A DNA stretch of 64,000 nucleotides from Trypanosoma brucei (lineage: Eukaryota), in NCBI GenBank assembly GCA_000002445.1, contig CM000207.1, positions 704,001-768,000 on the forward strand. Reading direction: 5' to 3'. Of this stretch, positions 8,597 to 48,634 are shown piece by piece. A program made the translations under genes and the position numbers. Numbering within the stretch: the first letter of the stretch is position 1; the number at the start of each line of letters is the position of its first letter. The notes beneath the pieces are model-generated. The model made no database searches, was not told the DNA's origin, and was given only the letters and a program-made list of their open reading frames with translations.

Positions 8597-9553
8597 ATGG
8601 CTCCAGTAGTGTGGCCGTGCGCCCTTAACCCATCAAATCACATACTGGTGCAAGAGTTGCTGCTACACGCGTCATTAGGTCGTCACCGCCATTCCCTGAG
8701 GGACAGAAAGGACTTTTTTCACCTTGCTAGGCACATTTCCTGCCTCAAAGAACCTTGCAAATACCTCGTTTCTGCGCCACCAACCTCTCGTGGACCACTG
8801 TGGGCTCCTTGGCGAAGCACAGTCCCCCGGCAAATAGTTTTCAATCGTATACTCCGTCAGTGCACCGATACTTATACGCAATCATCCCATAAAGAAGACA
8901 AAGAAGACGAGGAGGGGAGACGCGTACCAGTGTTTTATGATGATGCCATTGCTCATTTGAACAGAATAGCAGAAGAACTGGGGCCACACGGATACAAAGT
9001 AACTCTGGTCGGAGCACTGCGACGCGGGTGCCCCGTTGCTTCCCGAGCTGAGTTCCTTTTGACGTACGATGATGACGATAGAATCAGGAAACATCGTGAC
9101 AACGACACCACTGTGTCCCACAGTGTTCATTTTGAGCGAGCGATACAGGGACTAAGGGCTTCCGGATACATCAAGCATCATAGGACAAAAAGAAAGATTG
9201 ATATTCACACAAAACAGTACATAACACTTGCTTCTAGGTCCCATTCACATCCAGAAACCCTCTCCACATCACGAGAGGAAAGACAGGTTTTGTCTATTAC
9301 CTGGTCAAAACCACAACAGTTTCACACGCGGCAGCTGTTCCTCACGGGCCCGAACCCATTCGTGGTGCACCTTGTGCTGCTGGCCCATGCGAAGGGCCTG
9401 GGACTGGATCCTTGCGGGTTGTACAAATCCCAATTAGGGTTTCGGGAGTCTGTGGCACTTGAATGTGAAAGGGACATCTTCGCTGCGTTGCAGTTGCCGT
9501 ACGTTGAGCCCATTCACCGCCATGCATACTGCCGCGTTCACAACCTGTTTTGA
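8597..9553 (+). CDS. Pol X family (DNA polymerase beta-like) nucleotidyltransferase-fold protein, possibly non-canonical
   Basis: The C-terminal half aligns by eye to Pol beta palm and thumb. GALRRG(x5)AEFLLTYDDDD corresponds to GSFRRG(x5)DMDVLLTHP. KRKIDIHTKQY corresponds to RRIDIRLIPKDQY. FLTGPNPFVVHLVLLAHAKGLGL corresponds to [21 protein letters not shown]. The C-terminal ERDIFAALQLPYVEPIHRHA corresponds to the Pol X tail E(x)DIF..LGL.Y.EP..R. The two positions aligned to catalytic Asp190/Asp192 read R and E here. Confidence 0.45.
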   Translation: MAPVVWPCALNPSNHILVQELLLHASLGRHRHSLRDRKDFFHLARHISCLKEPCKYLVSAPPTSRGPLWAPWRSTVPRQIVFNRILRQCTDTYTQSSHKEDKEDEEGRRVPVFYDDAIAHLNRIAEELGPHGYKVTLVGALRRGCPVASRAEFLLTYDDDDRIRKHRDNDTTVSHSVHFERAIQGLRASGYIKHHRTKRKIDIHTKQYITLASRSHSHPETLSTSREERQVLSITWSKPQQFHTRQLFLTGPNPFVVHLVLLAHAKGLGLDPCGLYKSQLGFRESVALECERDIFAALQLPYVEPIHRHAYCRVHNLF

Positions 9554-9728
9554 GAGCGCCCGCGCCTTCCTTTTATTTGTTCTCCATGGGATATTGCTGT
9601 TCTTTAACTTCCTAACTGTATGGTTTTCTGTCGCATGTGTCGTCACAGACGCGCATCACTTTTTATACGACTAGATATGCCGCGTTACAGAGACCTATCG
9701 ATTGCCTGATTAAGTACTCTTGCAGGTG

Positions 9729-9793
9729 TTGCTTTGTCTTCTCCGCACTATTACTCATTCCCTTTTTCTTTACTGATTTTTTCTGGTATGAAG
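9729..9793 (+). promoter_or_regulatory. polypyrimidine tract plus AG (putative trans-splice acceptor region for RPS7)
   Basis: ttgctttgtcttctccgcactattactcattccctttttctttactgattttttctggtatgaAG lies immediately upstream of the RPS7 ATG. The same tract precedes the BRAP2-like gene at 22716 to 22750. Confidence 0.4.
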
Positions 9794-9815
9794 GCACTTC
9801 TATACACTAAGGGTG

Positions 9816-10424
9816 ATGTCCGCACAACCGCACCTCCGCAAGCTGCGTAAGCTCAAGCGCGCCAACCCGTCTCAGGAGGAGGAGGGCGTCGCGAGGGTGC
9901 TCTTTGAATTGGAAGGCTCCCACAAGACTCTCCGCGCGCAGTTGCCCCGCTTCCATATAAACACTGTTCGCACGTCGTCGAGTCCCCGTCACAAGAAGAC
10001 AGCTATGATCATTTTGTACCCGTTGCGTTTTATCATGCTTGTACGCAAGATTCAGCGAACGCTTACGGCAGAGCTCGAGAAGCGCTTCCCCGGAAACATT
10101 GTTGTGCTTGTTGCGCAGCGCAAGATAACGAAGCGACCGAATGATGTGTACAAGCTTCAGCAGGTGCAACGTTCCCGTACGAGCGTAGCGGTGTTTGAGA
10201 ATATCTTGAATGATCTTATATATCCGTGTGACGTGGTGGGCCGCCGTTGGCGTTACCGTACGGATGGGAGTAAGCTGATGAAAGTGTTCTTGGACGCCCG
10301 TGACCGCAAGAGGGTGGAGTCGAGACTTCCCCTTCTTGCCCACGTCTACAAGTTGTTGACGCACCGAACTGTCACCTTCGGGTTCATGTGGAACCCTAAG
10401 TTGCAGCAAGTGTCCTCCCGGTAG
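9816..10424 (+). CDS. RPS7: 40S ribosomal protein S7 (eS7), copy 1
   Basis: MSAQPHLRKLRKLKR..IVVLVAQRKI..RTLTAELEKRF..RSRTSVAVFENILNDLIYPCDVVGRRWRYRTDGSKLMKVFLDARDRK..VYKLLTHRTVTFGF aligns along its length with eukaryotic RPS7 (human ...[46 protein letters not shown]...). The track ORF starts at GTG 9813; the first ATG is at 9816. Confidence 0.85.
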   Translation: MSAQPHLRKLRKLKRANPSQEEEGVARVLFELEGSHKTLRAQLPRFHINTVRTSSSPRHKKTAMIILYPLRFIMLVRKIQRTLTAELEKRFPGNIVVLVAQRKITKRPNDVYKLQQVQRSRTSVAVFENILNDLIYPCDVVGRRWRYRTDGSKLMKVFLDARDRKRVESRLPLLAHVYKLLTHRTVTFGFMWNPKLQQVSSR

Positions 10425-10975
10425 ATGAGTTTCGCCCAGCTACTTTGAAGGTGCCATTATCAGTTTTTTGTTTTGATTTATTTTCACTACGCTGCCATCC
10501 TCGGTTGTGTAGTGCTAGAAAATGAAATGACACATGTCAGTACTGAAACTAGTGTAAGTTACAACCTCGAAGCTGCCTGTGTTTCCATGTTAGTCACCCC
10601 TTTGACATTTTCTTACCTTTTTGCTCATTAGTATTTTATGCTGGTGATAGACGCCCACTTTGGTGGTTCCTATGTGATGCAGCGAGTGAGATGAGGTGGC
10701 ATGCTATACTTCACTTCCGTGAGCTGCGTCACCACAGGTTCACCAACCCCTTCTCCACTGCGTGAGGATCGCGTGGTAAAAGCGTTTTCCGTGTTGGTGT
10801 CTTGTAGTAGAGTCATCCGAATGTGCCTCTCGCGGATAATGTGATTTATGTTTCCCACTGTTGCAGGCGGCTGCGAGTAGTCGGGTGCATCACAGATCAG
10901 CTTAGATTTCGCACAAGATCTGAGGCCCCGGAAGGTGTTTTCAAGCCTCTTCCTTATCGTCTTGGCGCTACGTTG

Positions 10976-11143
10976 TGGTTACTCCAATCGCATACCAACC
11001 AAGGCCTGAATGCCAGGATATCGAGCTTAGGAGCGAATATCGACAAGGCCAGACAGCGTGGCGAACAGCAGGTTGCGTTAAAGGAAGAGGAGTTAAGGGA
11101 TCTGCAGGGGAGACTTGAGAGTTTGATGAGGGATTTGGAGTGA
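10976..11143 (+). pseudogene. orphan 3' fragment (last 55 codons) of the BRAP2-like gene fused behind RPS7
   Basis: The track ORF 10823 to 11143 ends with LLQSHTNQGLNARISSLGANIDKARQRGEQQVALKEEELRDLQGRLESLMRDLE. That is identical to the C-terminus of the 22777 to 24432 gene. The upstream 51 codons have no counterpart in that gene and begin at GTG. Confidence 0.5.
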
Positions 11144-11543
11144 TGGTTTTCGGCGTCGTCTTGTCATCCCATCCCGCCTCCCTTCCGTATCATGCTGCGT
11201 CATTCCCCTTCGCCACTTATCAACACAGTCGTGTGCACTCCTACTGTTCTCACATCAGTCAGTGCAGCTTAGTTACCTCGTTTGGCTTACTTTGACTTAA
11301 GTACCTTTTTTTGTGCTCATTGCGGTTGCTGTATGACTGCCAGCTCTCAGATGTCTGGACTTTCCATTCTCTTTATGTTGACCCTACACACCTGCCCCAC
11401 ACTGCATTTCCCCCCACCGTTCCCTGTTTGCACCTTCCTGCTGTATGGGTGGTGTAAAATACCCATTAGCATTATAGCAGTTGGTGGCTTGTTAATAACT
11501 GAAGTTCGGATTACCGTGGCGAGTAAAGGTTTCCGGTGATATT

Positions 11544-12629
11544 ATGGTCGTCAAACGCCGTGGAAATGGCCGGTTAGGCAAACCTCCGACAGATACTGGA
11601 GTGAGTGAGAACTCTACCGGTGGAACCCCACCCCCGGAGTCTGCTTCTCAACGTGGCGGGGCGAAACAAACTACGGTTGCTTCCGCGATCAAGCAGCCCG
11701 CTTCGATGCCCGACGGCTCGTTGTCGCAGGATCGACGAAAGCGCCGCCGTAGGTTATCGGTGCCAGAGGAGGTGGCCCATGCCGTTGTGGAGGGGGAAGA
11801 AGCTACAGGTGCTGTAAGGGATGAAAGACTACCCGAAAATACTCGAGTTGTTGAACCTCAATTGAATGATCATGATGGTAAAGAGAGATACCCTCTGGGC
11901 GTTGTCCAGTTCCCAGAGGAGCAGCGCCCGTGGAGGAGCGCAAGGCGTAAAGCTGGGGTAGCTGAGGGAGGTAGTGACGAGGTTAACGCCGCACAGCTTC
12001 CTCCGACGGGCAACGCTGTGCCGCAGAAACCAACTAGGCGTTTAGGTAGAGCATCTGCCCCTCCGATACCACCTGTCGGTACTGTTGAACATGATTTGCA
12101 GACAACTGGTGGAACGTGTACGAGTGCTCCTATTGCGGGTGACCGCGCTTCCCGAACGTTTCAGGCGGCGGCGAGCCCCTCCGAAGATATTAAACAAAGG
12201 CCGCATAGAATTCCATTGATAATAGATAAGGGGCGTTTCAGTAAGCAAAAAGTCGAGGCTCCTCCCGGGACCGCAACCGTGGTGCCCATGGACACTGGAG
12301 AAAACCAGGCTGGCGTTTGTGAAGCAAACTCCGCACCACCAACTTCCTGTTCCCACCGTGGCGCCCAGCGCTTGGGGCATGGCCAACCTGCTGATGGCAC
12401 AAGTGGTGCTGTTGATAGTATAGAGGAGGGGCCCGGGCGCGGAATTGAGGAAGCCTCCGTGGACGCGCGACGTAGGAGGTTTATGCAGGTGCCGGTGAGC
12501 AGAATCTCGTTGTATACACGGCTTGCCGAGGGGGGTTTGGATGCTGCCGACCGCCCATTTGTCACATGTGTGGTAAAACATGCCCAATCGTCTGTTTCCG
12601 CATGGGTATCCGGGTTCTTGTCGCCTTGA
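11544..12629 (+). CDS. hypothetical protein (361 aa), Pro/Arg/Ser-rich, copy 1
   Basis: ORF from an ATG, duplicated at 18031 to 19116 with 3 aa differences. Low-complexity basic and proline-rich composition; no motif recognised. Confidence 0.45.
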   Translation: MVVKRRGNGRLGKPPTDTGVSENSTGGTPPPESASQRGGAKQTTVASAIKQPASMPDGSLSQDRRKRRRRLSVPEEVAHAVVEGEEATGAVRDERLPENTRVVEPQLNDHDGKERYPLGVVQFPEEQRPWRSARRKAGVAEGGSDEVNAAQLPPTGNAVPQKPTRRLGRASAPPIPPVGTVEHDLQTTGGTCTSAPIAGDRASRTFQAAASPSEDIKQRPHRIPLIIDKGRFSKQKVEAPPGTATVVPMDTGENQAGVCEANSAPPTSCSHRGAQRLGHGQPADGTSGAVDSIEEGPGRGIEEASVDARRRRFMQVPVSRISLYTRLAEGGLDAADRPFVTCVVKHAQSSVSAWVSGFLSP

Positions 12630-13920
12630 TGTGAGTGATGCTTTTATTTTTTCTTTGGAGGTGTGCGAATTTCTGTTTCTTGAAACAGATACTGACCGAT
12701 GGAGGGTCGTTGTTTTTCTTAGTTGGCTGTGCTGCTGGTGAAAGCACATTGTGAATGGGATAAATGGGTGTGAGGGTTTTCTTTCTAAATTTCTGCTGGC
12801 GGTTTATCCCTCATATTGTTTGCCTGAACTGGAGTGAATACAGTTCTCTTTTTGATACGGCTTCCTTTGCCGGTTGAACGGGGACACGCCTTCTTATTGG
12901 TTCTGTCGTGTACGCTTTTTCAGTGTAGTATTGGAGGGACTAACAGTGTGAGGAGCGGTGCCGAACCCAGTTGAACGCCTGTCATTGTGTGTGATGCCTG
13001 TACAACCGTGTTTCGGTTGCTTTGATTGCTCGATTGGCTGTGCGGCAGCCGTTGTGAAGGTGATGTAATCCCTTCAGTTGATGTGGCTTCTGCAGGTTGT
13101 TTCTTCCGGTGCGCGGGAACGGCAGACATAAGTGGTATATGTTTGGCTAGATACCGGCACTACTCTATAGGTTTACTTTTACTCTACTTTTTTTTTGTGT
13201 GTGTGCTTCCACTCACTTTGGTGTTCTGTTGCTGAGGCGGTGTTGCAACTGTGTCAGTGAACAGTACGCCATCTACGGATAGCACTACCGGCAGTCGGTT
13301 GCCGCTGGCGGTTGCTCATGAGGAGGTTTGTATTTACCTGCCGGTGGGTTGGCTTCTTGATGGGAGGTTAACAGGCGTGGGTGCCTTGTATGGTATCAGA
13401 TATTTCTCTAGGATGAAGGTTATGCACCATTACCATACCGTGGAGTTCGCCGTAATAAGGTGAAGTCATTTGAGCAGTAGTTCCTTTTGCTGTCATCTCT
13501 TGGTATATTATTGCCAAAAATACCTGTGCTATTGCTGCTACGTTGTAACCATGTCCTCTTTTGTGTTCAGTAACGGGGGTAGTGACTGTGACGACATATT
13601 CCGAGGCCGCATCGAGTTGTGTTTGACATTTGCCCTCCGTGTCGTAGCTTATACAACCTTCGTGGGTGGTGGTGCACATGTTTGTGTGCCCTGCAACGTC
13701 GCCGTTCACTACTTCAATTTTTTTGTACCCACTTGCGGATGAAACTTTTAGTCGGTATGTTCCCTTCTGGAATGACAGAGGGGAAGGACTGGTGATGTGC
13801 CGGTCGTCCCTCATTGTTGGTCTTTTCTCTTCTTGAACACGTAAATGCAAGCAGTGTCATAGCTATATTTTGGGGTGAAGAAAGGGCGAGGTTCACCTTC
13901 ATTTGGTTGGATTGCTGGGT

Positions 13921-14535
13921 ATGTCTACATCCCGCATTACGTTGTCGTCACAGCACGATGCACTGATAATTGTGGATATGCAGAATGATTTCGTGCTTCC
14001 CGACGGTGCGCTCTCCGTAACTGGTGCCACTGAGATCATACCGATAATTAATCGCGTTGTCGGAGATCACCAGTTTCGTGCCGTTGTCGCATCGATGGAC
14101 TGGCACCCTCCTGGACACATGTCGTTCCGAAATGAAGATGGGACAGGGGGTCCATGGCCTCCCCATTGCGTACGGTCAACGACTGGTGCCCAACTTCATT
14201 CAGAGATGAAACAAGGAGAGATAACCCACCTTATTCACAAGGCGACATCTCTGGATTCTGAAAGTTACTCCGCCTTCAGCGATGACAGCGGTAAGACAAC
14301 CGGTCTGGCTGCAATGCTGCGCGCCATGGACGTGAGAAGGGTTTTTATGTGTGGCGTAGCTTCCGATTACTGTGTATACTTTACCTCACTACACGCTATC
14401 CAAGAGGAATTTACCGTTGTTGTGTTGGAGGACGCCGTTCGCCCCGTCGACCCTGTTGCCATGGAGAAGAAGCGAGCACACCTGGAAAAGGAGGGCGTAA
14501 TCTTTGCGCGAAGCACAGACCTTTCCAGCTTCTGA
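13921..14535 (+). CDS. nicotinamidase / pyrazinamidase (isochorismatase family), copy 1
   Basis: ALIIVDMQNDFVLPDGALSV...WHPPGHMSF...WPPHCVRSTTGAQLH...VFMCGVASDYCVYFTSLHA carries the Asp, Lys and Cys catalytic-triad context and the metal-binding His/Asp pattern typical of PncA-type nicotinamidases. The track ORF begins at TTG 13903; the first ATG is at 13921. Confidence 0.75.
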   Translation: MSTSRITLSSQHDALIIVDMQNDFVLPDGALSVTGATEIIPIINRVVGDHQFRAVVASMDWHPPGHMSFRNEDGTGGPWPPHCVRSTTGAQLHSEMKQGEITHLIHKATSLDSESYSAFSDDSGKTTGLAAMLRAMDVRRVFMCGVASDYCVYFTSLHAIQEEFTVVVLEDAVRPVDPVAMEKKRAHLEKEGVIFARSTDLSSF

Positions 14536-15808
14536 GTCGGAGGTGGCTTCTTCTAGTGGTTCCTCCAGAAGTGTGGGACCGCGTAGGTGTGCCTAAGTGA
14601 TGAACGACAGGATGGAATGTAATGTGCTAATAATATGGGGCTGGGTGGCGGTGGTGGTGGTGAGCATGTCAAGGCGTACAGTGAGGGCTAGGTATATGCA
14701 ATCACCACCGTTATCATTGATTCTCAAGTGCATATTCCCAATAGGGCCACACATGCGCTCATGTACGGTCTCCTAAGGTGTATGTATGTGTGCGTTAGGT
14801 GTGTATGAAGCGAGCAAAGAAGAGAGGGGGGTCGAAATGGATGGCTCGGCAAACGGGTCTGCCAACTATTTTCTTCCCTCTCCCTTGGTTCTATTGCCTT
14901 GGTCGTTTTGCCATTTGAAAGACCTCTTCTTTGTTTTTTCTTCCATTGCACCGCGCCCGTCCCCGACGCCACCGGGTTCCCATTTTTTTTGTAACTGAAA
15001 AGAGGGACGGTACTGACACTTGGGGCGAATAACGGACACTAAGCGAACCTCACCCCTGAGTCTTCCCCACAAGGTGTTGGTTGCCGCGCAACAGAAGAAA
15101 TGGCGGGGTAGTAAGTGATGTGCGCGCGTACATGCACGATCCTGCGCGGCATCCGAAATTAATGGGCGGCGAGCTTTTGCTTACGGTTGGCCCTTGACAT
15201 GTGCGTTCAAATGGTGATGCCCTTCCATCATTTGCCGCAGTAACTTTTTTCCAGTGCAAACTCACAAGACATGCATTTGGAACATATTGGCGCTGGGGAT
15301 GTCAGGTGCCAACAGGGGTACTCTGTTTAATTGACGGTCAATAGCAGACAGCGTTTGTGTGATCTCCCTTTACCAGGCTGCAGATCCGTAGGGGTTGCCG
15401 AGTGGGAAGCCATCCGTTACGTTCCTGTCCCATTCCTCTCTTCCTCACACATGATGGTCGCAGCCGCCTGTAGGTATAATGTATTACCTATGGGTACAGT
15501 GAGCATTTGTTTGGAATAAAATGCCTTTTGCGACCATACAACAACCTACGCGTAATCGGCTACACTTATGCCTGAGCTGGTCGTGCGTAGGTCGCGTGTC
15601 TTGAAGGATGGTGCCGGGTTGACATGGGCTTCGGACTCTCATGAAGAGTGTCGATTCTTGTGGTATGCGCTGGTGCTATTTATATTGGAGTGATGTCTAC
15701 TGTGTGGAATCACAGCATGATGGCTTTGTGTGACGATTACCCGCCATTGGATTGAAATGTACTGCTTTGAACAGGTTGTGTGGCTGTGCCCACTGTCATT
15801 AATCGTAT

Positions 15809-16040
15809 TTACACGCGGCAGCTGTTCTTCACGGGCCCGAACCCATTCGTGATGCACCTTGTGCTGCTAACCCATGCGAAGGGCCTGGGACTGGATCCTT
15901 GAGGGTTGTACAAATCCCAATTAGGGTTTCGGGAGTCTGTGGCACTTGAATGTGAAAGGGACATCTTCGCTGCGTTGCAGTTGCCGTACGTTGAGCCCAT
16001 TCACCGCCATGCATACTGCCGCGTTCACAACCTGTTTTGA
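15809..16040 (+). pseudogene. detached 3' fragment of the Pol X-like gene (last ~77 codons)
   Basis: Translation TRQLFFTGPNPFVMHLVLLTHAKGLGLDPxGLYKSQLGFRESVALECERDIFAALQLPYVEPIHRHAYCRVHNLF matches the C-terminus of 8597 to 9553. The upstream sequence is unrelated to that gene. Confidence 0.45.
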
Positions 16041-17462: not shown

Positions 17463-17630
17463 TGGTTACTCCAATCGCATACCAACCAAGGCCTGAATGC
17501 CAGGATATCGAGCTTAGGAGCGAATATCGACAAGGCCAGACAGCGTGGCGAACAGCAGGTTGCGTTAAAGGAAGAGGAGTTAAGGGATCTGCAGGGGAGA
17601 CTTGAGAGTTTGATGAGGGATTTGGAGTGA
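17463..17630 (+). pseudogene. orphan 3' fragment of the BRAP2-like gene, copy 2
   Basis: Identical to 10976 to 11143. Confidence 0.5.
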
Positions 17631-18030
17631 TGTTTTTCGGCGTCGTCTTGTCATCCCATCCCGCCTCCCTTCCGTATCATGCTGCGTCATTCCCCTTCGC
17701 CACTTATCAACACAGTCGTGTGCACTCCTACTGTTCTCACATCAGTCAGTGCAGCTTAGTTACCTCGTTTGGCTTACTTTGACTTAAGTACCTTTTTTTG
17801 TGCTCATTGCGGTTGCTGTATGACTGCCAGCTCTCAGATGTCTGGACTTTCCATTCTCTTTATGTTGACCCTACACACCTGCCCCACACTGCATTTCCCC
17901 CCACCGTTCCCTGTTTGCACCTTCCTGCTGTATGGGTGGTGTAAAATACCCATTAGCATTATAGCAGTTGGTGGCTTGTTAATAACTGAAGTTCGGATTA
18001 CCGTGGCGAGTAAAGGTTTCCGGTGATATT

Positions 18031-19116
18031 ATGGTCGTCAAACGCCGTGGAAATGGCCGGTTAGGCAAACCTCCGACAGATACTGGAGTGAGTGAGAACT
18101 CTACCGGTGGAACCCCACCCCCGGAGTCTGCTTCTCAACGTGGCGGGGCGAAACAAACTACGGTTGCTTCCGCGATCAAGCAGCCCGCTTCGATGCCCGA
18201 CGGCTCGTTGTCGCAGGATCGACGAAAGCGCCGCCGTAGGTTATCGGTGCCAGAGGAGGTGGCCCATGCCGTTGTGGAGGGGGAAGAAGCTACAGGTGCT
18301 GTAAGGGATGAAAGACTACCCGAAAATACTCAAGTTGTTGAACCTCAATTGAATGATCATGATGGTAAAGAGAGATACCCTCTGGGCGTTGTCCAGTTCC
18401 CAGAGGAGCAGCGCCCGTGGAGGAGCGCAAGGCGTAAAGCTGGGGTAGCTGAGGGAGGTAGTGACGAGGTTAACGCCGCACAGCTTCCTCCGACGGGCAA
18501 CGCTGTGCCGCAGAAACCAACTAGGCGTTTAGGTAGAGCATCTGCCCCTCCGATACCACCTGTCAGTACTGTTGAACATGATTTGCAGACAACTGGTGGA
18601 ACGTGTACGAGTGCTCCTATTGCGGGTGACCGCGCTTCCCGAACGTTTCAGGCGGCGGCGAGCCCCTCCGAAGATATTAAACAAAGGCCGCATAGAATTC
18701 CATTGATAATAGATAAGGGGCGTTTCAGTAAGCAAAAAGTCGAGGCTCCTCCCGGGACCGCAACCGTGGTGCCCATGGACACTGGAGAAAACCAGACTGG
18801 CGTTTGTGAAGCAAACTCCGCACCACCAACTTCCTGTTCCCACCGTGGCGCCCAGCGCTTGGGGCATGGCCAACCTGCTGATGGCACAAGTGGTGCTGTT
18901 GATAGTATAGAGGAGGGGCCCGGGCGCGGAATTGAGGAAGCCTCCGTGGACGCGCGACGTAGGAGGTTTATGCAGGTGCCGGTGAGCAGAATCTCGTTGT
19001 ATACACGGCTTGCCGAGGGGGGTTTGGATGCTGCCGACCGCCCATTTGTCACATGTGTGGTAAAACATGCCCAATCGTCTGTTTCCGCCTGGGTATCCGG
19101 GTTCTTGTCGCCTTGA
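18031..19116 (+). CDS. hypothetical protein (361 aa), copy 2
   Basis: Differs from copy 1 at 3 positions (R to Q, G to S, A to T). Confidence 0.45.
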   Translation: MVVKRRGNGRLGKPPTDTGVSENSTGGTPPPESASQRGGAKQTTVASAIKQPASMPDGSLSQDRRKRRRRLSVPEEVAHAVVEGEEATGAVRDERLPENTQVVEPQLNDHDGKERYPLGVVQFPEEQRPWRSARRKAGVAEGGSDEVNAAQLPPTGNAVPQKPTRRLGRASAPPIPPVSTVEHDLQTTGGTCTSAPIAGDRASRTFQAAASPSEDIKQRPHRIPLIIDKGRFSKQKVEAPPGTATVVPMDTGENQTGVCEANSAPPTSCSHRGAQRLGHGQPADGTSGAVDSIEEGPGRGIEEASVDARRRRFMQVPVSRISLYTRLAEGGLDAADRPFVTCVVKHAQSSVSAWVSGFLSP

Positions 19117-20407
19117 TGTGAGTGATGCTTTTATTTTTTCTTTGGAGGTGTGCGAATTTCTGTTTCTTGAAACAGATACTGACCGATGGAGGGTCGTTGT
19201 TTTTCTTAGTTGGCTGTGCTGCTGGTGAAAGCACATTGTGAATGGGATAAATGGGTGTGAGGGTTTTCTTTCTAAATTTCTGCTGGCGGTTTATCCCTCA
19301 TATTGTTTGCCTGAACTGGAGTGAATACAGTTCTCTTTTTGATACGGCTTTCTTTGCCGGTTGAACGGGGACACGCCTTCTTATTGGTTCTGTCGTGTAC
19401 GCTTTTTCAGTGTAGTATTGGAGGGACTAACAGTGTGAGGAGCGGTGCCGAACCCAGTTGAACGCCTGTCATTGTGTGTGATGCCTGTACAACCGTGTTT
19501 CGGTTGCTTTGATTGCTCGATTGGCTGTGCGGCAGCCGTTGTGAAGGTGATGTAATCCCTTCAGTTGATGTGGCTTCTGCAGGTTGTTTCTTCCGGTGCG
19601 CGGGAACGGCAGACATAAGTGGTATATGTTTGGCTAGATACCGGCACTACTCTATAGGTTTACTTTTACTCTACTTTTTTTTTGTGTGTGTGCTTCCACT
19701 CACTTTGGTGTTCTGTTGCTGAGGCGGTGTTGCAACTGTGTCAGTGAACAGTACGCCATCTACGGATAGCACTACCGGCAGTCGGTTGCCGCTGGCGGTT
19801 GCTCATGAGGAGGTTTGTATTTACCTGCCGGTGGGTTGGCTTCTTGATGGGAGGTTAACAGGCGTGGGTGCCTTGTATGGTATCAGATATTTCTCTAGGA
19901 TGAAGGTTATGCACCATTACCATACCGTGGAGTTCGCCGTAATAAGGTGAAGTCATTTGAGCAGTAGTTCCTTTTGCTGTCATCTCTTGGTATATTATTG
20001 CCAAAAATACCTGTGCTATTGCTGCTACGTTGTAACCATGTCCTCTTTTGTGTTCAGTAACGGGGGTAGTGACTGTGACGACATATTCCGAGGCCGCATC
20101 CAGTTGTGTTTGACATTTGCCCTCCGTGTCGTAGCTTATACAACCTTCGTGGGTGGTGGTGCACATGTTTGTGTGCCCTGCAACGTCGCCGTTCACTACT
20201 TCAATTTTTTTGTACCCACTTGCGGATGAAACTTTTAGTCGGTATGTTCCCTTCTGGAATGACAGAGGGGAAGGACTGGTGATGTGCCGGTCGTCCCTCA
20301 TTGTTGGTCTTTTCTCTTCTTGAACACGTAAATGCAAGCAGTGTCATAGCTATATTTTGGGGTGAAGAAAGGGCGAGGTTCACCTTCATTTGGTTGGATT
20401 GCTGGGT

Positions 20408-21022
20408 ATGTCTACATCCCGCATTACGTTGTCGTCACAGCACGATGCACTGATAATTGTGGATATGCAGAATGATTTCGTGCTTCCCGACGGTGCGCTC
20501 TCCGTAACTGGTGCCACTGAGATCATACCGATAATTAATCGCGTTGTCGGAGATCACCAGTTTCGTGCCGTTGTCGCATCGATGGACTGGCACCCTCCTG
20601 GACACATGTCGTTCCGAAATGAAGATGGGACAGGGGGTCCATGGCCTCCCCATTGCGTACGGTCAACGACTGGTGCCCAACTTCATTCAGAGATGAAACA
20701 AGGAGAGATAACCCACCTTATTCACAAGGCGACATCTCTGGATTCTGAAAGTTACTCCGCCTTCAGCGATGACAGCGGTAAGACAACCGGTCTGGCTGCA
20801 ATGCTGCGCGCCATGGACGTGAGAAGGGTTTTTATGTGTGGCGTAGCTTCCGATTACTGTGTATACTTTACCTCACTACACGCTATCCAAGAGGAATTTA
20901 CCGTTGTTGTGTTGGAGGACGCCGTTCGCCCCGTCGACCCTGTTGCCATGGAGAAGAAGCGAGCACACCTGGAAAAGGAGGGCGTAATCTTTGCGCGAAG
21001 CACAGACCTTTCCAGCTTCTGA
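20408..21022 (+). CDS. nicotinamidase (isochorismatase family), copy 2
   Basis: Protein identical to copy 1. Confidence 0.75.
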   Translation: MSTSRITLSSQHDALIIVDMQNDFVLPDGALSVTGATEIIPIINRVVGDHQFRAVVASMDWHPPGHMSFRNEDGTGGPWPPHCVRSTTGAQLHSEMKQGEITHLIHKATSLDSESYSAFSDDSGKTTGLAAMLRAMDVRRVFMCGVASDYCVYFTSLHAIQEEFTVVVLEDAVRPVDPVAMEKKRAHLEKEGVIFARSTDLSSF

Positions 21023-22295
21023 GTCGGAGGTGGCTTCTTCTAGTGGTTCCTCCAGAAGTGTGGGACCGCGTAGGTGTGCCTAAGTGATGAACGACAGGAT
21101 GGAATGTAATGTGCTAATAATATGGGGCTGGGTGGCGGTGGTGGTGGTGAGCATGTCAAGGCGTACAGTGAGGGCTAGGTATATGCAATCGCCACCGTTA
21201 TCATTGATTCTCAAGTGCATATTCCCAATAGGGCCACACATGTGCTCATGTACGGTCTCCTAAGGTGTATGTATGTGTGCGTTAGGTGTGTATGAAGCGA
21301 GCAAAGAAGAGAGGGGGGTCGAAATGGATGGCTCGGCAAACGGGTCTGCCAACTATTTTCTTCCCTCTCCCTTGGTTCTATTGCCTTGGTCGTTTTGCCA
21401 TTTGAAAGACCTCTTCTTTGTTTTTTCTTCCATTGCACCGCACCCGTCCCCGACGCCACCGGGTTCCCATTTTTTTTGTAACTGAAAAGAGGGACGGTAC
21501 TGACACTTGGGGCGAATAACGGACACTAAGCGAACCTCACCCCTGAGTCTTCCCCACAAGGTGTTGGTTGCCGCGCAACAGAAGAAATGGCGGGGTAGTA
21601 AGTGATGTGCGCGCGTACATGCACGATCCTGCGCGGCATCCGAAATTAATGGGCGGCGAGCTTTTGCTTACGGTTGGCCCTTGACATGTGCGTTCAAATG
21701 GTGATGCCCTTCCATCATTTGCCGCAGTAACTTTTTTCCAGTGCAAACTCACAAGACATGCATTTGGAACATATTGGCGCTGGGGATGTCAGGTGCCAAC
21801 AGGGGTACTCTGTTTAATTGACGGTCAATAGCAGACAGCGTTTGTGTGATCTCCCTTTACCAGGCTGCAGATCCGTAGGGGTTGCCGAGTGGGAAGCCAT
21901 CCGTTACGTTCCTGTCCCATTCCTCTCTTCCTCACACATGATGGTCGCAGCCGCCTGTAGGTATAATGTATTACCTATGGGTACAGTGAGCATTTGTTTG
22001 GAATAAAATGCCTTTTGCGACCATACAACAACCTACGCGTAATCGGCTACACTTATGCCTGAGCTGGTCGTGCGTAGGTCGCGTGTCTTGAAGGATGGTG
22101 CCGGGTTGACATGGGCTTCGGACTCTCATGAAGAGTGTCGATTCTTGTGGTATGCGCTGGTGCTATTTATATTGGAGTGATGTCTACTGTGTGGAATCAC
22201 AGCATGATGGCTTTGTGTGACGATTACCCGCCATTGGATTGAAATGTACTGCTTTGAACAGGTTGTGTGGCTGTGCCCACTGTCATTAATCGTAT

Positions 22296-22527
22296 TTACA
22301 CGCGGCAGCTGTTCTTCACGGGCCCGAACCCATTCGTGATGCACCTTGTGCTGCTAACCCATGCGAAGGGCCTGGGACTGGATCCTTGCGGGTTGTACAA
22401 ATCCCAATTAGGGTTTCGGGAGTCTGTGGCACTTGAATGTGAAAGGGACATCTTCGCTGCGTTGCAGTTGCCGTACGTTGAGCCCATTCACCGCCATGCA
22501 TACTGCCGCGTTCACAACCTGTTTTGA
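22296..22527 (+). pseudogene. detached 3' fragment of the Pol X-like gene, copy 3
   Basis: Track ORF 22267 to 22527 (86 aa) reproduces the last ~77 residues of 8597 to 9553. Confidence 0.45.
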
Positions 22528-22749
22528 GAGCGCCCGCGCCTTCCTTTTATTTGTTCTCCATGGGATATTGCTGTTCTTTAACTTCCTAACTGTATGGTTT
22601 TCTGTCGCATGTGTCGTCACAGACGCGCATCATTTTTTATACGACTAGATATGCCGCGTTACAGAGACCTATCGATTGCCTGATTAAGTACTCTTGCAGG
22701 TGTTGCTTTGTCTTCTCCGCACTATTACTCATTCCCTTTTTCTTTACTG
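22296..22749 (+). repeat. partial third copy of the tandem unit (Pol X-like 3' fragment plus downstream UTR and polypyrimidine tract)
   Basis: Matches 9322 to 9775 and 15809 to 16262. Homology ends inside the pyrimidine tract ctttttctttactgatt, after which the BRAP2-like gene body begins. Confidence 0.75.
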
Positions 22750-22776
22750 ATTGGTGTTGATAGTATATTTTTTGAA

Positions 22777-24432
22777 ATGAGTGTCACCGGCTTCGGTGAT
22801 GTTGTTGTATCTTTTGATGCGGAAGGTGTTGTAGTTGTTGGGCTAACTTATGAGCGTTCAAATGCGACACAGTGGTTGCTGCTCCCGGAAATTCCCGTTG
22901 AAGTCCCTCTTGTTAAGGTTCTTCGTGATCTTGAGGAATCTGGTGCTTCTCGACAACGGTCACCTGGTCGAATGAGGGGAGAAGGAGTTAAAGGAGATGT
23001 TTGTTTGCCAGACAGTGAAGTTGGATCACCTTGTAACGCGTGCGGTGTTAATAACATTCGTAGTGATTGTTGCATTTCTGTTGCTCGTGTGGGGCACATT
23101 CCGGAACGAAATCGCGCATACTGTTTGCTTTTGGAGTTGTCATCTTCTTCTGATGCCGCTGATGTGCAAAGAGATCTGCTGCACGTCGAGTGGGCTAATG
23201 GGCCCTTGTGTGCACCGCAGTTTTTGCAGTCCGTCGGCCGTATAATGAGGGTGGAGCATGAAGGGCGTGATGCCGCATGCGTGAGCAACTGCGCGGGTTG
23301 GCGGACACAAGTGTCTACGGACAATGCGGAAGATGTTTGCCTACGTGTCCTTTGCAGTGTGTCGTGCGGTGTTGATGGGGCGTCATCTCGGCGGCAGTTG
23401 GAAAGTGAAAAGGAGATATCTAGCGTTGCGCTCCGGAGAGACGCTCCTCTAGCACCGATAGAAGAGTTTTGCCCCATCTGCCGTGAGGAAATCGCATCTG
23501 GAAGAACGTGCGTTGTTACTATGTGCACCCACGTCTTCCACCTTGTTTGCCTCATGAAGCACTTAGAAGATGTTAGTTCATATTGCCCTCTTTGTCGTTT
23601 TTCGATGTCGTCTCTTGAAACTAAGTGCAACGCGTGTGGAACGTGCCAGGACTTGTGGAGTTGTTTAGTTTGCGGTTGGGTGGGATGTGGTAAGGGGCGG
23701 CACGGACATAGCATACGGCACTTCCACAGCACAGGGCACTCGTGTGCCGTGCAGAATAGCACTTCACGCATATGGAACTATCGCGCCAGCACATTTCTCC
23801 ACCACCAACTAGCTATGGAATTGGGTTACGAAGACGACGCAAGGGCGGAGCGTGCTGCAGCGCAGGAGGAGGGCAGGTCGGCCCTCTCTGTTCGTCACAG
23901 CGGGGAAAAACCCAGGGTCAGTGCTTCATCCTATTGGCGCAGTAGGTGGTGGTGGGACGAAAAGGAAGAGGAAGCTGCACAAGAGCTCAATGGCGACTAT
24001 GTGCGGGAGTATTATCTCCGTGTAATGGAGGAACTCATGCAGGAACAGGCGGACTATTTTGAGGGGCGTACAATGGTGGAGGGAGAGAATGCGGCTGTAC
24101 CCATCGGGACATGGAAGAAGCTGCAAAGCGCAGAACGGCGTCAACGGCGTAGTCTTGCTTCGAGGTACATTGCTGGTTTGCGCCGTATTGCGCTACACAG
24201 CCAGATGGCCGTCAACAATTTTGTGAAGCAGGAGGTCTTATGGAGGGATTCGTTGCGTGAAGAGTTATTACTCCAATCGCATACCAACCAAGGCCTGAAT
24301 GCCAGGATATCGAGCTTAGGAGCGAATATCGACAAGGCCAGACAGCGTGGCGAACAGCAGGTTGCGTTAAAGGAAGAGGAGTTAAGGGATCTGCAGGGGA
24401 GACTTGAGAGTTTGATGAGGGATTTGGAGTGA
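22777..24432 (+). CDS. BRAP2/IMP-like E3 ubiquitin ligase (RING-H2 plus ZnF-UBP plus coiled coil)
   Basis: The RING-H2 is CPICREEIASGRTCVVTMCTHVFHLVCLMKHLEDVSSYCPLCR. The ZnF-UBP is CNACGTCQDLWSCLVCGWVGCGKGRHGHSIRHFHSTGHSCAVQNSTSRIWNY, which follows the BRAP2 pattern C..CG....LW.CL.CG..GCGR...HA..H...H. A long E/R/Q-rich coiled coil follows. The track ORF starts at TTG 22708; the first ATG is at 22777. Confidence 0.65.
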   Translation: MSVTGFGDVVVSFDAEGVVVVGLTYERSNATQWLLLPEIPVEVPLVKVLRDLEESGASRQRSPGRMRGEGVKGDVCLPDSEVGSPCNACGVNNIRSDCCISVARVGHIPERNRAYCLLLELSSSSDAADVQRDLLHVEWANGPLCAPQFLQSVGRIMRVEHEGRDAACVSNCAGWRTQVSTDNAEDVCLRVLCSVSCGVDGASSRRQLESEKEISSVALRRDAPLAPIEEFCPICREEIASGRTCVVTMCTHVFHLVCLMKHLEDVSSYCPLCRFSMSSLETKCNACGTCQDLWSCLVCGWVGCGKGRHGHSIRHFHSTGHSCAVQNSTSRIWNYRASTFLHHQLAMELGYEDDARAERAAAQEEGRSALSVRHSGEKPRVSASSYWRSRWWWDEKEEEAAQELNGDYVREYYLRVMEELMQEQADYFEGRTMVEGENAAVPIGTWKKLQSAERRQRRSLASRYIAGLRRIALHSQMAVNNFVKQEVLWRDSLREELLLQSHTNQGLNARISSLGANIDKARQRGEQQVALKEEELRDLQGRLESLMRDLE

Positions 24433-24976
24433 TGTTTTTCGGCGTCGTCTTGTCATCCCATCCCGCCCCCCTTCCGTATCATGCTGCGTCATTCCCCTTC
24501 GCCACTTATCAACACAGTCGTGTGCACTCCTACTGTTCTCACATCAGTCAGTGCAGCTTAGTTACCTCGTTTGGCTTACTTTGACTTAAGTACCTTTTTT
24601 TGTGCTCATTGCGGTTGCTGTATGACTGCCAGCTCTCAGATGTCTGGACTTTCCATTCTCTTTATGTTGACCCTACACACCTGCCCCACACTGCATTTCC
24701 CCCCACCGCTCCCTGTTTGCACCTTCCTGCTGTATGGGTGGTGTAAAATACCCATTAGCATTATAGCAGTTGGTGGCTTGTTAATAACTGAAGTTCGGAT
24801 TACCGTGGCGAGTAAAGGTTTCCGGTGATATTATGGTCGTCAAACGCCGTGGAAATGGCCGGTTAGGCAAACCTCCGACAGATACTGGAGTGAGTGAGAA
24901 CTCTACCGGTGGAACCCCACCCCCGGAGTCTGCTTCTCAACGTGGCGGGGCGAAACAAACTACGGTTGCTTCCGCG
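24270..24976 (+). repeat. dispersed copy of the T segment (BRAP2 3' end, intergenic, first 48 codons of the 361-aa gene)
   Basis: Near-identical to 10976 to 11687 and 17463 to 18174. ORFs 24571 to 24828 and 24833 onward mirror 11282 to 11539 and 11544 onward. Confidence 0.75.
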
Positions 24977-48567: not shown

Positions 48568-48572
48568 TGAAT

Positions 48573-48573
<1 letters not shown>

Positions 48574-48634
<61 letters not shown>

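What the first reader, a model, noticed from the sequence alone, without database searches (positions are those of the whole stretch)
9322..24976. Cassette-like mosaic: shared X and T flanks around alternative inserts R (RPS7) and U (BRAP2-like body) generate chimeric gene fragments
The region reads A-X-R-T-H-N-X-R-T-H-N-X-U-T, where A is the unique Pol X-like gene body, H the 361-aa gene and N the nicotinamidase region. X is the Pol X-like gene's last 77 codons plus its 3' flank and pyrimidine tract (9322 to 9783, 15809 to 16270, 22296 to 22749). T is the BRAP2-like gene's last 55 codons plus downstream sequence plus the first 48 codons of the 361-aa gene (10976 to 11687, 17463 to 18174, 24270 to 24976). 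R or U sits between them. RPS7 and the BRAP2-like gene therefore share the same upstream pyrimidine-tract and splice-acceptor region. The 3' processing region of RPS7 is also built from BRAP2 coding sequence. In trypanosomes expression is set by UTRs and processing signals, so this swaps regulatory context between a ribosomal protein and an E3 ligase. The junctions at about 9783/22750 and at 10976/24270 are sharp.
Basis: partly seen in the sequence, partly recalled or inferred. Interest (0 to 1): 0.65.

Follow-up and report, generated by a model that had tools for sequence, protein, structure and literature searches.

The report
Rearrangement scars around a trypanosome gene duplication
The repeated "flanks" are real, but they are leftover gene ends from a rearrangement specific to the Trypanosoma brucei group, which moved two genes in front of a neighbour and then duplicated a three-gene block that is already published. 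This is ordinary genome evolution, not a cassette system.

Summary
The window is T. b. brucei TREU927 chromosome 9 and reads A-X-R-T-H-N-X-R-T-H-N-X-U-T.
- X is 458 nt: 9321-9778, 15808-16265 and 22295-22752.
- T is 711 nt: 10979-11689, 17466-18176 and 24268-24978.
- All junctions are sharp.

T. cruzi, T. theileri, T. vivax and Porcisia keep the order (PolX)-RPS7-BRAP2-H-nicotinamidase-AAA. T. congolense contigs keep RPS7 next to BRAP2 and BRAP2 next to H-N. T. brucei therefore has a derived order, PolX-[RPS7-H-N]n-BRAP2-AAA, with four novel junctions. Each junction is marked by a truncated gene end: a PolX 3' relic, a BRAP2 3' relic or an H 5' relic.

T. b. gambiense has one unit, with the same relics and junctions. 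TREU927 and T. equiperdum have two. That 3-gene duplication is already listed in Jackson et al. 2010, Table 1. Variants specific to one strain are shared by all T copies of that strain, which indicates gene conversion.

Published poly(A) mapping (Kolev 2010) puts the RPS7 mRNA end 51-94 nt after its stop codon. This refutes the claim that RPS7 3' processing uses BRAP2 sequence. The relics lie instead in four separate "novel transcripts": Tb9.NT.20, NT.100, NT.21 and NT.22. H is most likely TelAP3.

Interest is low to moderate.

The parts
8597..9553 (+). A plus the start of X1: the intact 318-aa gene with a DNA polymerase beta thumb domain (old ID Tb09.160.2480). Its last 76-77 codons are the coding part of X.
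   Evidence: Pfam PF14791 at aa 247-308. Exact match to TREU927 EAN76475. Poly(A) site at window 9673, giving a 120-nt 3'UTR.
9321..9778 (+). X1, the original copy: PolX 3' end, its poly(A) site, and the pyrimidine tract (9758-9771) that precedes RPS7.
9321..15807 (+). Tandem unit 1 (6487 bp): X1-R-T-H-N.
   Evidence: Between-copy distances are RPS7 1/609, H 4/1086 and N 0. These equal the 0.0016, 0.0037 and 0 given in Jackson 2010 Table 1.
15808..22294 (+). Tandem unit 2 (6487 bp): psiX2-R-T-H-N.
9816..10424 (+). RPS7 copy 1 (Tb09.160.2490). R1 spans 9779-10978. Poly(A) sites at 10475 and 10502.
   Evidence: Pfam PF01251.. The 5'UTR is conserved with T. congolense.
16303..16911 (+). RPS7 copy 2 (Tb09.160.2550, Tb927.9.3990). 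R2 spans 16266-17465. Poly(A) site at 17005.
10979..11689 (+). T1: a BRAP2 3' relic (54 codons plus stop, no usable ATG), the BRAP2-type poly(A) region, and the genuine splice acceptor (AG at 11468-9) and first 48 codons of H.
17466..18176 (+). T2: as T1, in unit 2.
11544..12629 (+). H copy 1 (361 aa). Inferred from gene numbering to be TelAP3 (Tb927.9.3930/4000).
   Evidence: Orthology to the gene downstream of BRAP2 in other species rests on the conserved C-terminus.
18031..19116 (+). H copy 2 (361 aa). It differs from copy 1 at 4 nt.
13921..14535 (+). Nicotinamidase copy 1 (204 aa).
   Evidence: Pfam PF00857. P0013 is named nicotinamidase.
20408..21022 (+). Nicotinamidase copy 2, with a CDS identical to copy 1.
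15808..16265 (+). psiX2: a PolX 3' relic that follows nicotinamidase. It has 7 substitutions relative to X1, including TGC>TGA at 15902.
22295..22752 (+). psiX3: a PolX 3' relic that now supplies the pyrimidine tract upstream of BRAP2.
22753..24267 (+). U: unique sequence made of 24 nt of 5' flank plus BRAP2 codons 1-497.
22777..24432 (+). Intact BRAP2-like gene (551 aa) with RING-H2 and ZnF-UBP domains.
   Evidence: Pfam. Orthologues are named BRCA1-associated protein. Exact match to EAN76486.
24268..24978 (+). T3, the original BRAP2 3' end and 3' flank, followed by an H 5' relic (splice acceptor plus 48 codons).
24833..25018 (+). Chimeric 61-codon ORF: 48 H codons plus 13 codons from the upstream flank of the next gene. 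It lies inside transcript Tb9.NT.22.
   Evidence: This exact protein is not in the protein collection.
10632..11317 (+). Published novel transcript Tb9.NT.20 (5.44 RNAs/cell). It starts after a pyrimidine tract and AG in the RPS7 3' flank, crosses the R|T junction and contains the BRAP2 relic.
   Evidence: Kolev 2010 Table S7. Sequence context.
17119..17785 (+). Published novel transcript Tb9.NT.100 (1.32 RNAs/cell), the unit-2 equivalent of NT.20.
21463..22660 (+). Published novel transcript Tb9.NT.21 (2.15 RNAs/cell). It crosses the N|X junction, contains psiX3 and ends about 12 nt downstream of the position in psiX3 that corresponds to the PolX poly(A) site (22648).
   Evidence: Its listed start does not follow an AG, so the 5' end is approximate.
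24759..25908 (+). Published novel transcript Tb9.NT.22 (1.59 RNAs/cell). It starts exactly at the T3 copy of the H splice acceptor and crosses the T|Z' junction.
26061..30005 (+). Next gene downstream (1314 aa, weak AAA/P-loop hits). In outgroups it follows nicotinamidase.

Best explanation
X and T are not cassette flanks. They are breakpoint scars of a local rearrangement that happened once in the Trypanozoon lineage (the subgenus that holds T. brucei), after which an unequal crossover duplicated a block.

Sequence of events:
1. The ancestral order was PolX - RPS7 - BRAP2 - H - nicotinamidase - AAA gene.
2. In the ancestor of T. brucei, gambiense and equiperdum it became PolX-X | R | T-H-N | psiX | U-T | Z'. 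H and nicotinamidase now precede BRAP2.
3. This created four novel junctions: R|T, N|X, X|U and T|Z'. It also left three truncated gene ends: a PolX 3' relic, a BRAP2 3' relic and an H 5' relic.
4. My preferred route, which is inferred, is a tandem duplication of the segment from PolX codon ~242 to about 1.27 kb past nicotinamidase. Loss of redundant copies followed: the BRAP2 body from copy 1, and RPS7 plus H-N from copy 2.
5. Unequal crossing-over between X1 and psiX then added a second R-T-H-N unit. TREU927 and T. equiperdum have two units. The gambiense DAL972 assembly has one.
6. The copies stay nearly identical through gene conversion.

How the relics behave (inferred from the known coupling of processing signals): trypanosome mRNA ends are set by intergenic splice and poly(A) signals, and every surviving breakpoint left such a module intact. 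Each relic is therefore still processed into its own small orphan transcript. BRAP2 now uses the PolX/RPS7 pyrimidine tract, and its 3' end is still defined by the retained H splice-acceptor copy.
For: Shown:
- Repeat anatomy and sharp junctions.
- Ancestral order in T. cruzi and T. theileri (PolX-RPS7-RPS7-BRAP2-H-(MFS)-N-AAA), in T. vivax (BRAP2-H-N-AAA) and in Porcisia (RPS7-BRAP2-MFS-N-large ORF).
- T. congolense contigs give PolX-RPS7-BRAP2-AAA and BRAP2(3')-H-N.
- H is orthologous to the gene downstream of BRAP2, judged by its conserved C-terminus.
- All four junctions are identical in TREU927, T. b. gambiense DAL972 (one unit) and the T. equiperdum PacBio assembly (two units).
- The relics are truncated. 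The BRAP2 and PolX relics lack an ATG that would translate more than their last few codons (BRAP2 relic), any ATG at all (psiX2), or anything but one created by a relic-specific substitution (psiX3). psiX2 has a premature stop, and TREU927 psiX carries 4 amino-acid changes.
- Concerted evolution: 7 variants in T that differ between strains are carried by every T copy within a strain. Within a strain T copies differ at 1-3 sites, between strains at 8-11.
- The 3-gene duplication is published: unit about 6.35 kb, 2 copies in T. b. brucei against 1 in T. b. gambiense. Its per-gene distances equal those I measure.
- Transcript ends fit the module model. The PolX poly(A) site at 9673 lies inside X. 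RPS7 poly(A) sites lie 114-157 nt upstream of the NT.20/NT.100 acceptor. NT.22 starts at the H-acceptor copy.
- Poly(A) sites are defined by downstream splice signals in trypanosomes (PMC9380746 abstract).

Inferred: the order of events, the X1/psiX crossover, and which signals BRAP2 uses today.
Against: - Four distinct novel junctions need four illegitimate joins. The data cannot separate a stepwise route from a single complex event.
- The parental sequences lost at each junction are unknown, so microhomology cannot be scored.
- The single unit in gambiense could be a collapsed assembly. Jackson 2010 itself warns that assembled copy numbers can be arbitrary.
- T. congolense is known only from two short contigs that fork 314 nt after the BRAP2 stop. 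Its full arrangement is unresolved.
- The RNA-seq was mapped to a reference in which X and T are repeated. Transcript ends that fall inside X or T may therefore be partly assigned by multi-mapping reads.
Confidence: 0.85

Rival explanations
1. One-step complex repair. A single broken or stalled replication end copied T-H-N, then X, then returned to U-T and jumped to Z'. This would be replicative template switching or templated insertion at a break just upstream of BRAP2. It would create all or most junctions at once, with no duplicated intermediate.
For: All four junctions lie within about 15 kb and all segments are in direct orientation. A pyrimidine tract (10946-10963) sits 15 nt before the end of R. 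U starts 24 nt before the BRAP2 ATG, with an AG at +10. This is what one would expect if R-end and U-start were once contiguous and a patch T-H-N-X was inserted between them. The summed length of 578 nt is close to the 537-nt RPS7-BRAP2 spacer of T. congolense.
Against: If R-end and U-start were contiguous, the R|T and X|U junctions show no microhomology. Both template switching and the end joining documented in T. brucei rely on microhomology (PMC2377438 and PMC3045614 abstracts). The pyrimidine-tract argument is weak, at about 1 in 8 by chance. T|Z' still needs a further switch or a later deletion. Non-coding alignment to T. congolense could not test contiguity.
Confidence: 0.3
2. X and T are functional shared flanks of a cassette-like arrangement that places RPS7 and BRAP2 under common 5' and 3' regulatory context, and they are maintained by selection.
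For: X supplies the same pyrimidine tract to RPS7 and BRAP2. T copies are kept nearly identical. The relics are transcribed.
Against: The RPS7 mRNA ends 51-94 nt after its stop, far from T. The predicted AG acceptors and 5'UTRs differ between RPS7 and BRAP2. Only two 'inserts' exist, and both are explained by synteny. psiX is decaying in TREU927, with a stop codon and 4 amino-acid changes. Identity between copies is explained by gene conversion, which needs no selection. RPS7 is at about 287 mRNAs per cell for the two copies counted together, which shows that its expression is very high, although no BRAP2 level was retrieved to compare it with.
Confidence: 0.07
3. Assembly artefact: chimeric joins created by misassembling repeats in the reference genome.
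For: Short-read assemblies break at the repeat edges. L008 starts at the left edge of T, and L012 joins at T|H across a run of Ns.
Against: Identical junctions occur in three independently generated assemblies, including a PacBio one. The duplication is reported in the literature. Published transcripts cover three of the junction types. Contig breaks at repeat edges are what a true repeat produces.
Confidence: 0.02

Closest known systems
Subspecies-specific segmental duplications of T. brucei (Jackson et al. 2010, PLoS NTD, PMC2854126, Table 1: Tbg972.9.1930-1950)
   Same: This is the same locus. The table lists a 3-gene unit (ribosomal protein S7, hypothetical protein, nicotinamidase), with 2 copies in T. 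b. brucei 927 and 1 in T. b. gambiense. Its per-gene distances of 0.0016, 0.0037 and 0 equal what I count.
   Different: The table gives only unit length (6350 bp; I measure 6487 bp), copy number and distances. It does not mention the PolX, BRAP2 and H relics, the change of gene order relative to other trypanosomes, or that the single-copy gambiense state already carries psiX and T.
Tandem gene arrays with concerted evolution in T. brucei (Jackson 2007, BMC Evol Biol, PMC1855330)
   Same: Head-to-tail units sit in one polycistron, are homogenised by recombination, and show less homogenisation at the edges of the repeat structure (conclusion).
   Different: That paper does not list this array. 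No hit was found for S7 or nicotinamidase. Here the homogenised tracts include non-functional gene fragments that exchange with the functional BRAP2 3' end and H 5' end.
Duplication followed by reciprocal loss of redundant copies, which changes gene order (general knowledge, for example after genome or segment duplication in yeasts)
   Same: Each gene returns to one functional copy, the order changes, and truncated remnants mark the deletions.
   Different: The scale here is a 6-7 kb segment. The duplicated intermediate is inferred, not observed.
Replicative template-switch rearrangements (FoSTeS / MMBIR; general knowledge)
   Same: Several breakpoints cluster within a few kb, and segments are copied out of order in direct orientation.
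   Different: The defining microhomology at junctions could not be shown, and it is absent under the contiguity assumption.
Novel trans-spliced, polyadenylated transcripts of T. brucei (Kolev et al. 2010, PMC2936537, Table S7)
   Same: Tb9.NT.20, NT.100, NT.21 and NT.22 are entries in that list and map onto the relics.
   Different: The paper lists them with no stated origin. They are absent from its tables of conserved, peptide-supported or non-coding novel transcripts. Here they are explained as transcripts framed by inherited processing signals around gene relics.

Membership tests
T. brucei tandem segmental duplication (multi-gene unit) | Two or more head-to-tail copies of a unit that contains whole genes, on one strand | tested here: met
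   The 6487-bp unit is present 2.07 times at 99.7% identity. It holds RPS7, H and nicotinamidase, all on the + strand.
T. brucei tandem segmental duplication (multi-gene unit) | Copy number differs between strains or subspecies | tested here: met
   One unit in the DAL972 assembly, two in TREU927 and in the T. equiperdum PacBio assembly. Published. A collapsed assembly for DAL972 is not excluded.
Concerted evolution by gene conversion | Paralogous copies within a genome share variants that distinguish genomes | tested here: met
   Seven fixed between-strain variants in T are present in all T copies of each strain.
Pseudogene relic (unprocessed, truncated) | Truncated relative to the parent gene, with no functional start | tested here: met
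   The PolX relic is the last 76-77 of 318 codons. The BRAP2 relic is the last 54 of 551 codons. In the BRAP2 relic frame the only ATG is 5 codons before the stop. psiX2 has no ATG, and in psiX3 the only ATG was created by a relic-specific substitution.
Pseudogene relic (unprocessed, truncated) | Disabling or unconstrained substitutions | tested here: inconclusive
   TREU927 psiX has 4 amino-acid changes, and psiX2 has a stop. psiX in gambiense and equiperdum differs from X1 at one site, and the BRAP2 relic is identical to its parent, probably because of conversion.
MMBIR / FoSTeS complex rearrangement | Microhomology of a few bases at each junction | tested here: inconclusive
   One parent of each junction is lost. 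If R-end/U-start and N-end/Z'-start were contiguous, no microhomology is present. The 8-mer TGCTTCCG on both sides of T|Z' is within chance expectation (1.3% per site).
MMBIR / FoSTeS complex rearrangement | Several clustered breakpoints created in a single event | not testable with these tools
   This needs intermediate or ancestral genomes close to Trypanozoon.
Recombination cassette system (silent or alternative inserts exchanged between conserved flanks by dedicated machinery) | Multiple alternative inserts, dedicated recombination sites or enzymes, and evidence of exchange | tested here: not met
   Only two insert types exist, and both are ordinary housekeeping genes in ancestral relative order. 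No further X or T copies occur in the 64-kb window. The flanks are gene ends whose origin is traceable by synteny.
Shared mRNA-processing module (RPS7 and BRAP2 co-processed) | Same poly(A)/3' region used by both genes | tested here: not met
   RPS7 poly(A) sites lie at 10475/10502 and 17005, upstream of T. The BRAP2-type poly(A) region in T1 and T2 belongs to NT.20 and NT.100.
Shared mRNA-processing module (RPS7 and BRAP2 co-processed) | Same pyrimidine tract and same AG acceptor | tested here: inconclusive
   The same tract is shown by sequence. The first downstream AG differs (9792-3 against 22762-3). The stored copies of the splice-site tables do not contain these genes.

The most novel reading that the evidence does not exclude
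The relic-derived orphan transcripts might not be inert. Tb9.NT.22 starts at a perfect copy of the TelAP3 (H) splice acceptor and 5'UTR. It could be translated into a 61-aa peptide carrying the basic N-terminal 48 residues of this telomere-associated protein. More generally, a measurable share of the 1,114 'novel transcripts' of T. brucei could be by-products, or co-opted products, of rearrangement scars that kept intact processing signals. Gene conversion between the relics and the live BRAP2 3' end or TelAP3 5' end could also feed mutations accumulated in relics back into functional genes.
Probability: 0.1. Interest if true: 0.5.

Novelty: new member of a known kind. Interest (0 to 1): 0.3.

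Why it matters
- **Gene-order change.** It documents at nucleotide resolution a rare change of gene order inside the otherwise strongly collinear core of trypanosomatid chromosomes. The change dates to the Trypanozoon lineage.
- **Which rearrangements survive.** In a genome where mRNA ends are set by intergenic signals, most breakpoints fall inside coding sequence or beside a pyrimidine tract. This leaves the splice and poly(A) modules whole.
- **Origin of four transcripts.** It gives a concrete origin for four published transcripts that had no stated origin.
- **Practical points for TelAP3.** The TelAP3 5'UTR and its first 146 coding bases occur three times, and the last 162 coding bases and 3' flank of BRAP2 occur three times. 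This matters for designing tagging and knock-out constructs, for RNAi specificity and for read mapping. TelAP3 also appears to have orthologues outside the T. brucei group, contrary to a published survey.
- **No new mechanism.** None of this requires a new mechanism.

Tried and rejected
1. **Microhomology at the four junctions.** One parent of each junction no longer exists, so this is not testable. Under the contiguity assumption there is none.
2. **The 8-mer TGCTTCCG on both sides of T|Z'.** Its background frequency is 1.3% per site, or about 5% over four junctions. I do not treat it as a signal.
3. **Testing whether R-end and U-start, or N-end and Z'-start, were once contiguous.** I aligned the T. 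brucei non-coding sequence to T. congolense, T. vivax, T. cruzi and T. theileri. Only the RPS7 5'UTR and the first 60 nt or so of its 3'UTR are recognisably conserved.
4. **A 44-nt, 75% match between the X tail and the T. congolense BRAP2 upstream region.** It scored z=3.1, with 5 of 300 shuffles as good. I rejected it as chance after a k-mer dot-plot showed many equal off-diagonal hits.
5. **Homologue search with H.** It returned only the Trypanozoon cluster. Orthology had to be shown by synteny plus pairwise BLAST.
6. **Exact-protein look-ups.** The TREU927 BRAP2 and H proteins are not in the gene-position index. T. congolense BRAP2 is also absent from it.
7. **Splice-acceptor tables for RPS7 and BRAP2.** The Kolev S4/S12 copies are truncated and lack these genes. 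The Siegel 2010 supplements are not held. The Nilsson 2010 supplements have no hit.
8. **Jackson 2007.** It does not list this array.
9. **Mobile elements (ingi/RIME).** Their involvement was not tested, because no reference sequences were available. No poly(A) tails or other repeats were seen at the junctions.

Full report
**What is there**

Self-comparison of the window shows a 6487-bp head-to-tail unit. Unit 1 is 9321-15807 and unit 2 is 15808-22294, with 19 differences between them.

A second repeat, T (711 nt), lies at 10979-11689, 17466-18176 and 24268-24978, with 2-3 differences between copies. U (22753-24267) is unique. The junction sequences are sharp.

Pfam and ORF analysis identify these genes:
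- a 318-aa gene with a DNA polymerase beta thumb domain (8597-9553);
- RPS7 (9816-10424 and 16303-16911);
- a 361-aa gene, H (11544-12629 and 18031-19116);
- an isochorismatase-family nicotinamidase (13921-14535 and 20408-21022);
- a RING plus ZnF-UBP protein of the BRAP2 type (22777-24432);
- a 1314-aa gene starting at 26061.

X is the last 76-77 PolX codons plus 225 nt of 3' flank.

**Source**

The proteins are exact matches to T. b. brucei TREU927 entries EAN76475-EAN76486. Annotated ORFs in Kolev 2010 Table S2 fix the offset: window coordinate equals Tb927_09_v4 coordinate minus 704,000. Two published transcript starts then fall exactly after a pyrimidine tract and AG, which confirms the offset.

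**What it is**

Gene order around the BRAP2 and nicotinamidase orthologues in other trypanosomatids gives the ancestral state.
- T. cruzi and T. theileri have Dymeclin, a ~700-aa gene, PolX, RPS7, RPS7, BRAP2, H, (MFS), nicotinamidase and the AAA gene.
- T. vivax has BRAP2, H, nicotinamidase and AAA.
- Porcisia has RPS7, BRAP2, MFS, nicotinamidase and a large ORF.

H is the orthologue of the gene after BRAP2, judged by its conserved C-terminal 45-80 residues.

T. congolense is known from two contigs.
- L015 carries PolX (from residue 128), RPS7, BRAP2 and AAA.
- L010 begins inside BRAP2 (its last 133 codons) and continues with H and nicotinamidase.
- The two share 714 nt at 99.7% and then fork 97 nt before the H ATG.

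T. congolense thus keeps RPS7 next to BRAP2 and BRAP2 next to H. It lacks the T. brucei junctions as far as can be seen, but it has a structural variant of its own.

In contrast, TREU927, T. b. gambiense DAL972 and T. equiperdum all have PolX-[RPS7-H-N]n-BRAP2-AAA with identical R|T, N|X, X|U and T|Z' junctions. The copy number n is 1 in the gambiense assembly and 2 in the other two.

The T. brucei arrangement is therefore derived. H and nicotinamidase moved in front of BRAP2. X and T are the scars of that move.

**How it arose**

Number the ancestral segments 1=A, 2=X, 3=R, 4=U, 5=T, 6=H, 7=N and 8=Z'. The one-unit state then reads 1 2 3 5 6 7 2 4 5 8.

It contains four adjacencies that do not exist in the ancestor: 3|5, 7|2, 2|4 and 5|8. 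Homologous recombination creates no new junctions, so four illegitimate joins are needed.

- **Route I prefer.** Tandem duplication of 2-7 creates junction 7|2. Loss of redundant copies follows: 4 from copy 1, and 3 and 6-7 from copy 2.
- **Alternative.** A single repair event with several template switches, for example insertion of a 5-6-7-2 patch at a break just upstream of BRAP2.

A pyrimidine tract 15 nt from the end of R would fit the second model, as would the 578-nt sum of the R flank and the U leader against 537 nt in T. congolense. However, that model then implies junctions without microhomology. Documented end joining in T. brucei is microhomology-dependent, and NHEJ has not been reported (PMC2377438, PMC3045614). 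The lost parental sequences make a direct test impossible.

The second unit is what unequal crossing-over between X1 and psiX predicts. The middle X carries the psiX alleles at all diagnostic sites. A crossover would therefore lie in the last ~120 nt of X. This step is inferred.

**Maintenance**

Within TREU927 the T copies differ at 3 sites. Between TREU927 and gambiense or equiperdum they differ at 8-11 sites. Seven of those differences are carried by every T copy of a strain, whether relic or functional. That is the signature of gene conversion, so the high identity says nothing about the age of the rearrangement.

X behaves differently in different strains.
- In gambiense and equiperdum, psiX differs from X1 at one site.
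- In TREU927, psiX2 and psiX3 share six C>T or G>A changes, four of which alter amino acids.
- psiX2 also has a TGC>TGA stop.

**Already known**

Jackson et al. 2010 (PMC2854126, Table 1) list Tbg972.9.1930-1950 on chromosome 9. The entry gives a 6350-bp unit of three genes (ribosomal protein S7, hypothetical protein, nicotinamidase), with two copies in T. b. brucei 927 against one in T. b. gambiense. The distances are 0.0016, 0.0037 and 0. I count 1/609, 4/1086 and 0, so this is the same feature.

I found no paper that describes the relics or the change in gene order.

**Expression**

Kolev et al. 2010 (PMC2936537) provide part of it, from procyclic cells.

- Table S13 puts the PolX poly(A) site at window 9673, inside X.
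- It puts the RPS7 sites at 10475/10502 for copy 1 and 17005 for copy 2. The RPS7 3'UTR is therefore 51-94 nt.
- RPS7 is not processed in BRAP2-derived sequence.

Table S7 lists four "novel" trans-spliced, polyadenylated transcripts:

| Transcript | Window coordinates | RNAs/cell |
|---|---|---|
| Tb9.NT.20 | 10632-11317 | 5.44 |
| Tb9.NT.100 | 17119-17785 | 1.32 |
| Tb9.NT.21 | 21463-22660 | 2.15 |
| Tb9.NT.22 | 24759-25908 | 1.59 |

- NT.20 and NT.100 start immediately after TTTTCTTACCTTTTTGCTCATTAG in the RPS7 flank. They cross R|T, contain the BRAP2 relic and end 155-174 nt after its stop.
- NT.21 crosses N|X and ends about 12 nt downstream of the position in psiX3 that corresponds to the PolX poly(A) site.
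- NT.22 starts exactly at the T3 copy of the H acceptor (AG 24757-8, equivalent to 11468-9). It carries the 61-codon chimeric ORF and ends before the AAA gene.

The fragments are therefore in mature RNAs, but as orphan transcripts framed by processing signals inherited from the parent genes. This fits the rule that poly(A) sites are set by downstream splice signals (PMC9380746).

Two caveats apply. Reads inside X and T map to several places. The listed start of NT.21 does not follow an AG.

For BRAP2 I could not find mapped sites. From the sequence, it should use the X tract and the AG at 22762-3, giving a 13-nt 5'UTR. Its 3' end should be set by the retained H acceptor in T3. Both points are inferences.

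**Identity of H**

RPS7 is Tb927.9.3990. Tb927.9.3930 and Tb927.9.4000 are a pair of "hypothetical proteins" that mass spectrometry cannot distinguish. They co-purify with TbTRF and telomeric DNA and are now named TelAP3.

H is the only conserved hypothetical gene in the unit, and it directly follows RPS7. It is therefore very probably TelAP3. This is an inference from gene numbering.

**Verdict**

The structure is a scar-bearing, lineage-specific rearrangement plus a published tandem duplication, kept homogeneous by gene conversion. It is a tidy example of known processes rather than a new kind of system.

Noticed in passing
window 11544-12629 and 18031-19116; L010 812-1798; L004 2413-3324; L002 12084-12917; L003 12197-13009: H is very probably TelAP3 (Tb927.9.3930/4000). 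[quoted passage not shown] Positional orthologues with a conserved C-terminal ~50 aa exist in T. congolense (67% identity over 51 aa), T. cruzi, T. theileri and T. vivax. It looks like a fast-evolving Trypanosoma-wide gene rather than a T. brucei novelty.
   Followed up: partly
window 10979-11689, 17466-18176, 24268-24978: The TelAP3 5'UTR, splice acceptor and first 146 coding bases are present three times, once as a relic downstream of BRAP2. The BRAP2 3' end and 3' flank are also present three times. Short-homology tagging or knock-out constructs and RNAi fragments aimed at these parts have extra targets. The TelAP2 preprint reports that TelAP3 could be tagged only in bloodstream forms, but no link was tested.
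   Followed up: no
L010 1-714 and L015 3242-3956 (T. congolense IL3000): Two contigs share 714 nt at 99.7% (the BRAP2 3' end plus 314 nt). They then fork to H-nicotinamidase or to the AAA gene, 97 nt before the H ATG. This is a different position from the T. brucei T|Z' junction. It is either an independent duplication or deletion at the same spot, or a heterozygous H-N deletion.
   Followed up: partly
window 15808-16265 and 22295-22752: All six substitutions that separate the TREU927 PolX relics from X1 are C>T or G>A, and five of them lie in the first 63 nt. The relics of gambiense and equiperdum lack them. This could be lineage-specific decay, or recent conversion by X1 in the other strains.
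   Followed up: partly
window 24966-24996: The 8-mer TGCTTCCG occurs 4 nt to the left and 5 nt to the right of the T|Z' junction. Such pairs occur at 1.3% of random positions in the window.
   Followed up: yes
window 35926-48567: Four AMP-binding (fatty acyl-CoA synthetase type) genes lie in tandem. The last three sit in 3.5-kb units that are 97.5% identical (40929-45077 against 44435-48576). A fatty acyl-CoA synthetase array is listed in Jackson 2007.
   Followed up: partly
L007 12379-13059 (T. equiperdum PacBio, first unit): The first nicotinamidase copy is called as 226 aa with a frameshifted C-terminus (P0014), against 204 aa elsewhere. This is either real decay of one duplicate or a long-read indel error.
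   Followed up: partly
L012 7770 (T. equiperdum Illumina scaffold CZPT02001821): The scaffold joins a DEAD-box helicase region to H codon 50, exactly at the T|H boundary, and it contains 47 Ns. This looks like a scaffolding join at the repeat edge.
   Followed up: partly
window 33316-33403: An 88-nt AT-rich, near-perfect palindrome (about 90% self-complementary) lies between two + strand ORFs.
   Followed up: no
window 10670-10816, 13368-13814, 17157-17303, 19855-20301, 25532-25868 (minus strand): Minus-strand ORFs annotated as 'hypothetical protein, unlikely' (Tb09.160.2500, Tb09.160.2560, Tb09.v1.0140, Tb09.v1.0160, Tb09.160.2630, Tb09.160.2640) are listed by Kolev 2010 as producing no detectable transcript. 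They are likely annotation noise inside the unit.
   Followed up: partly
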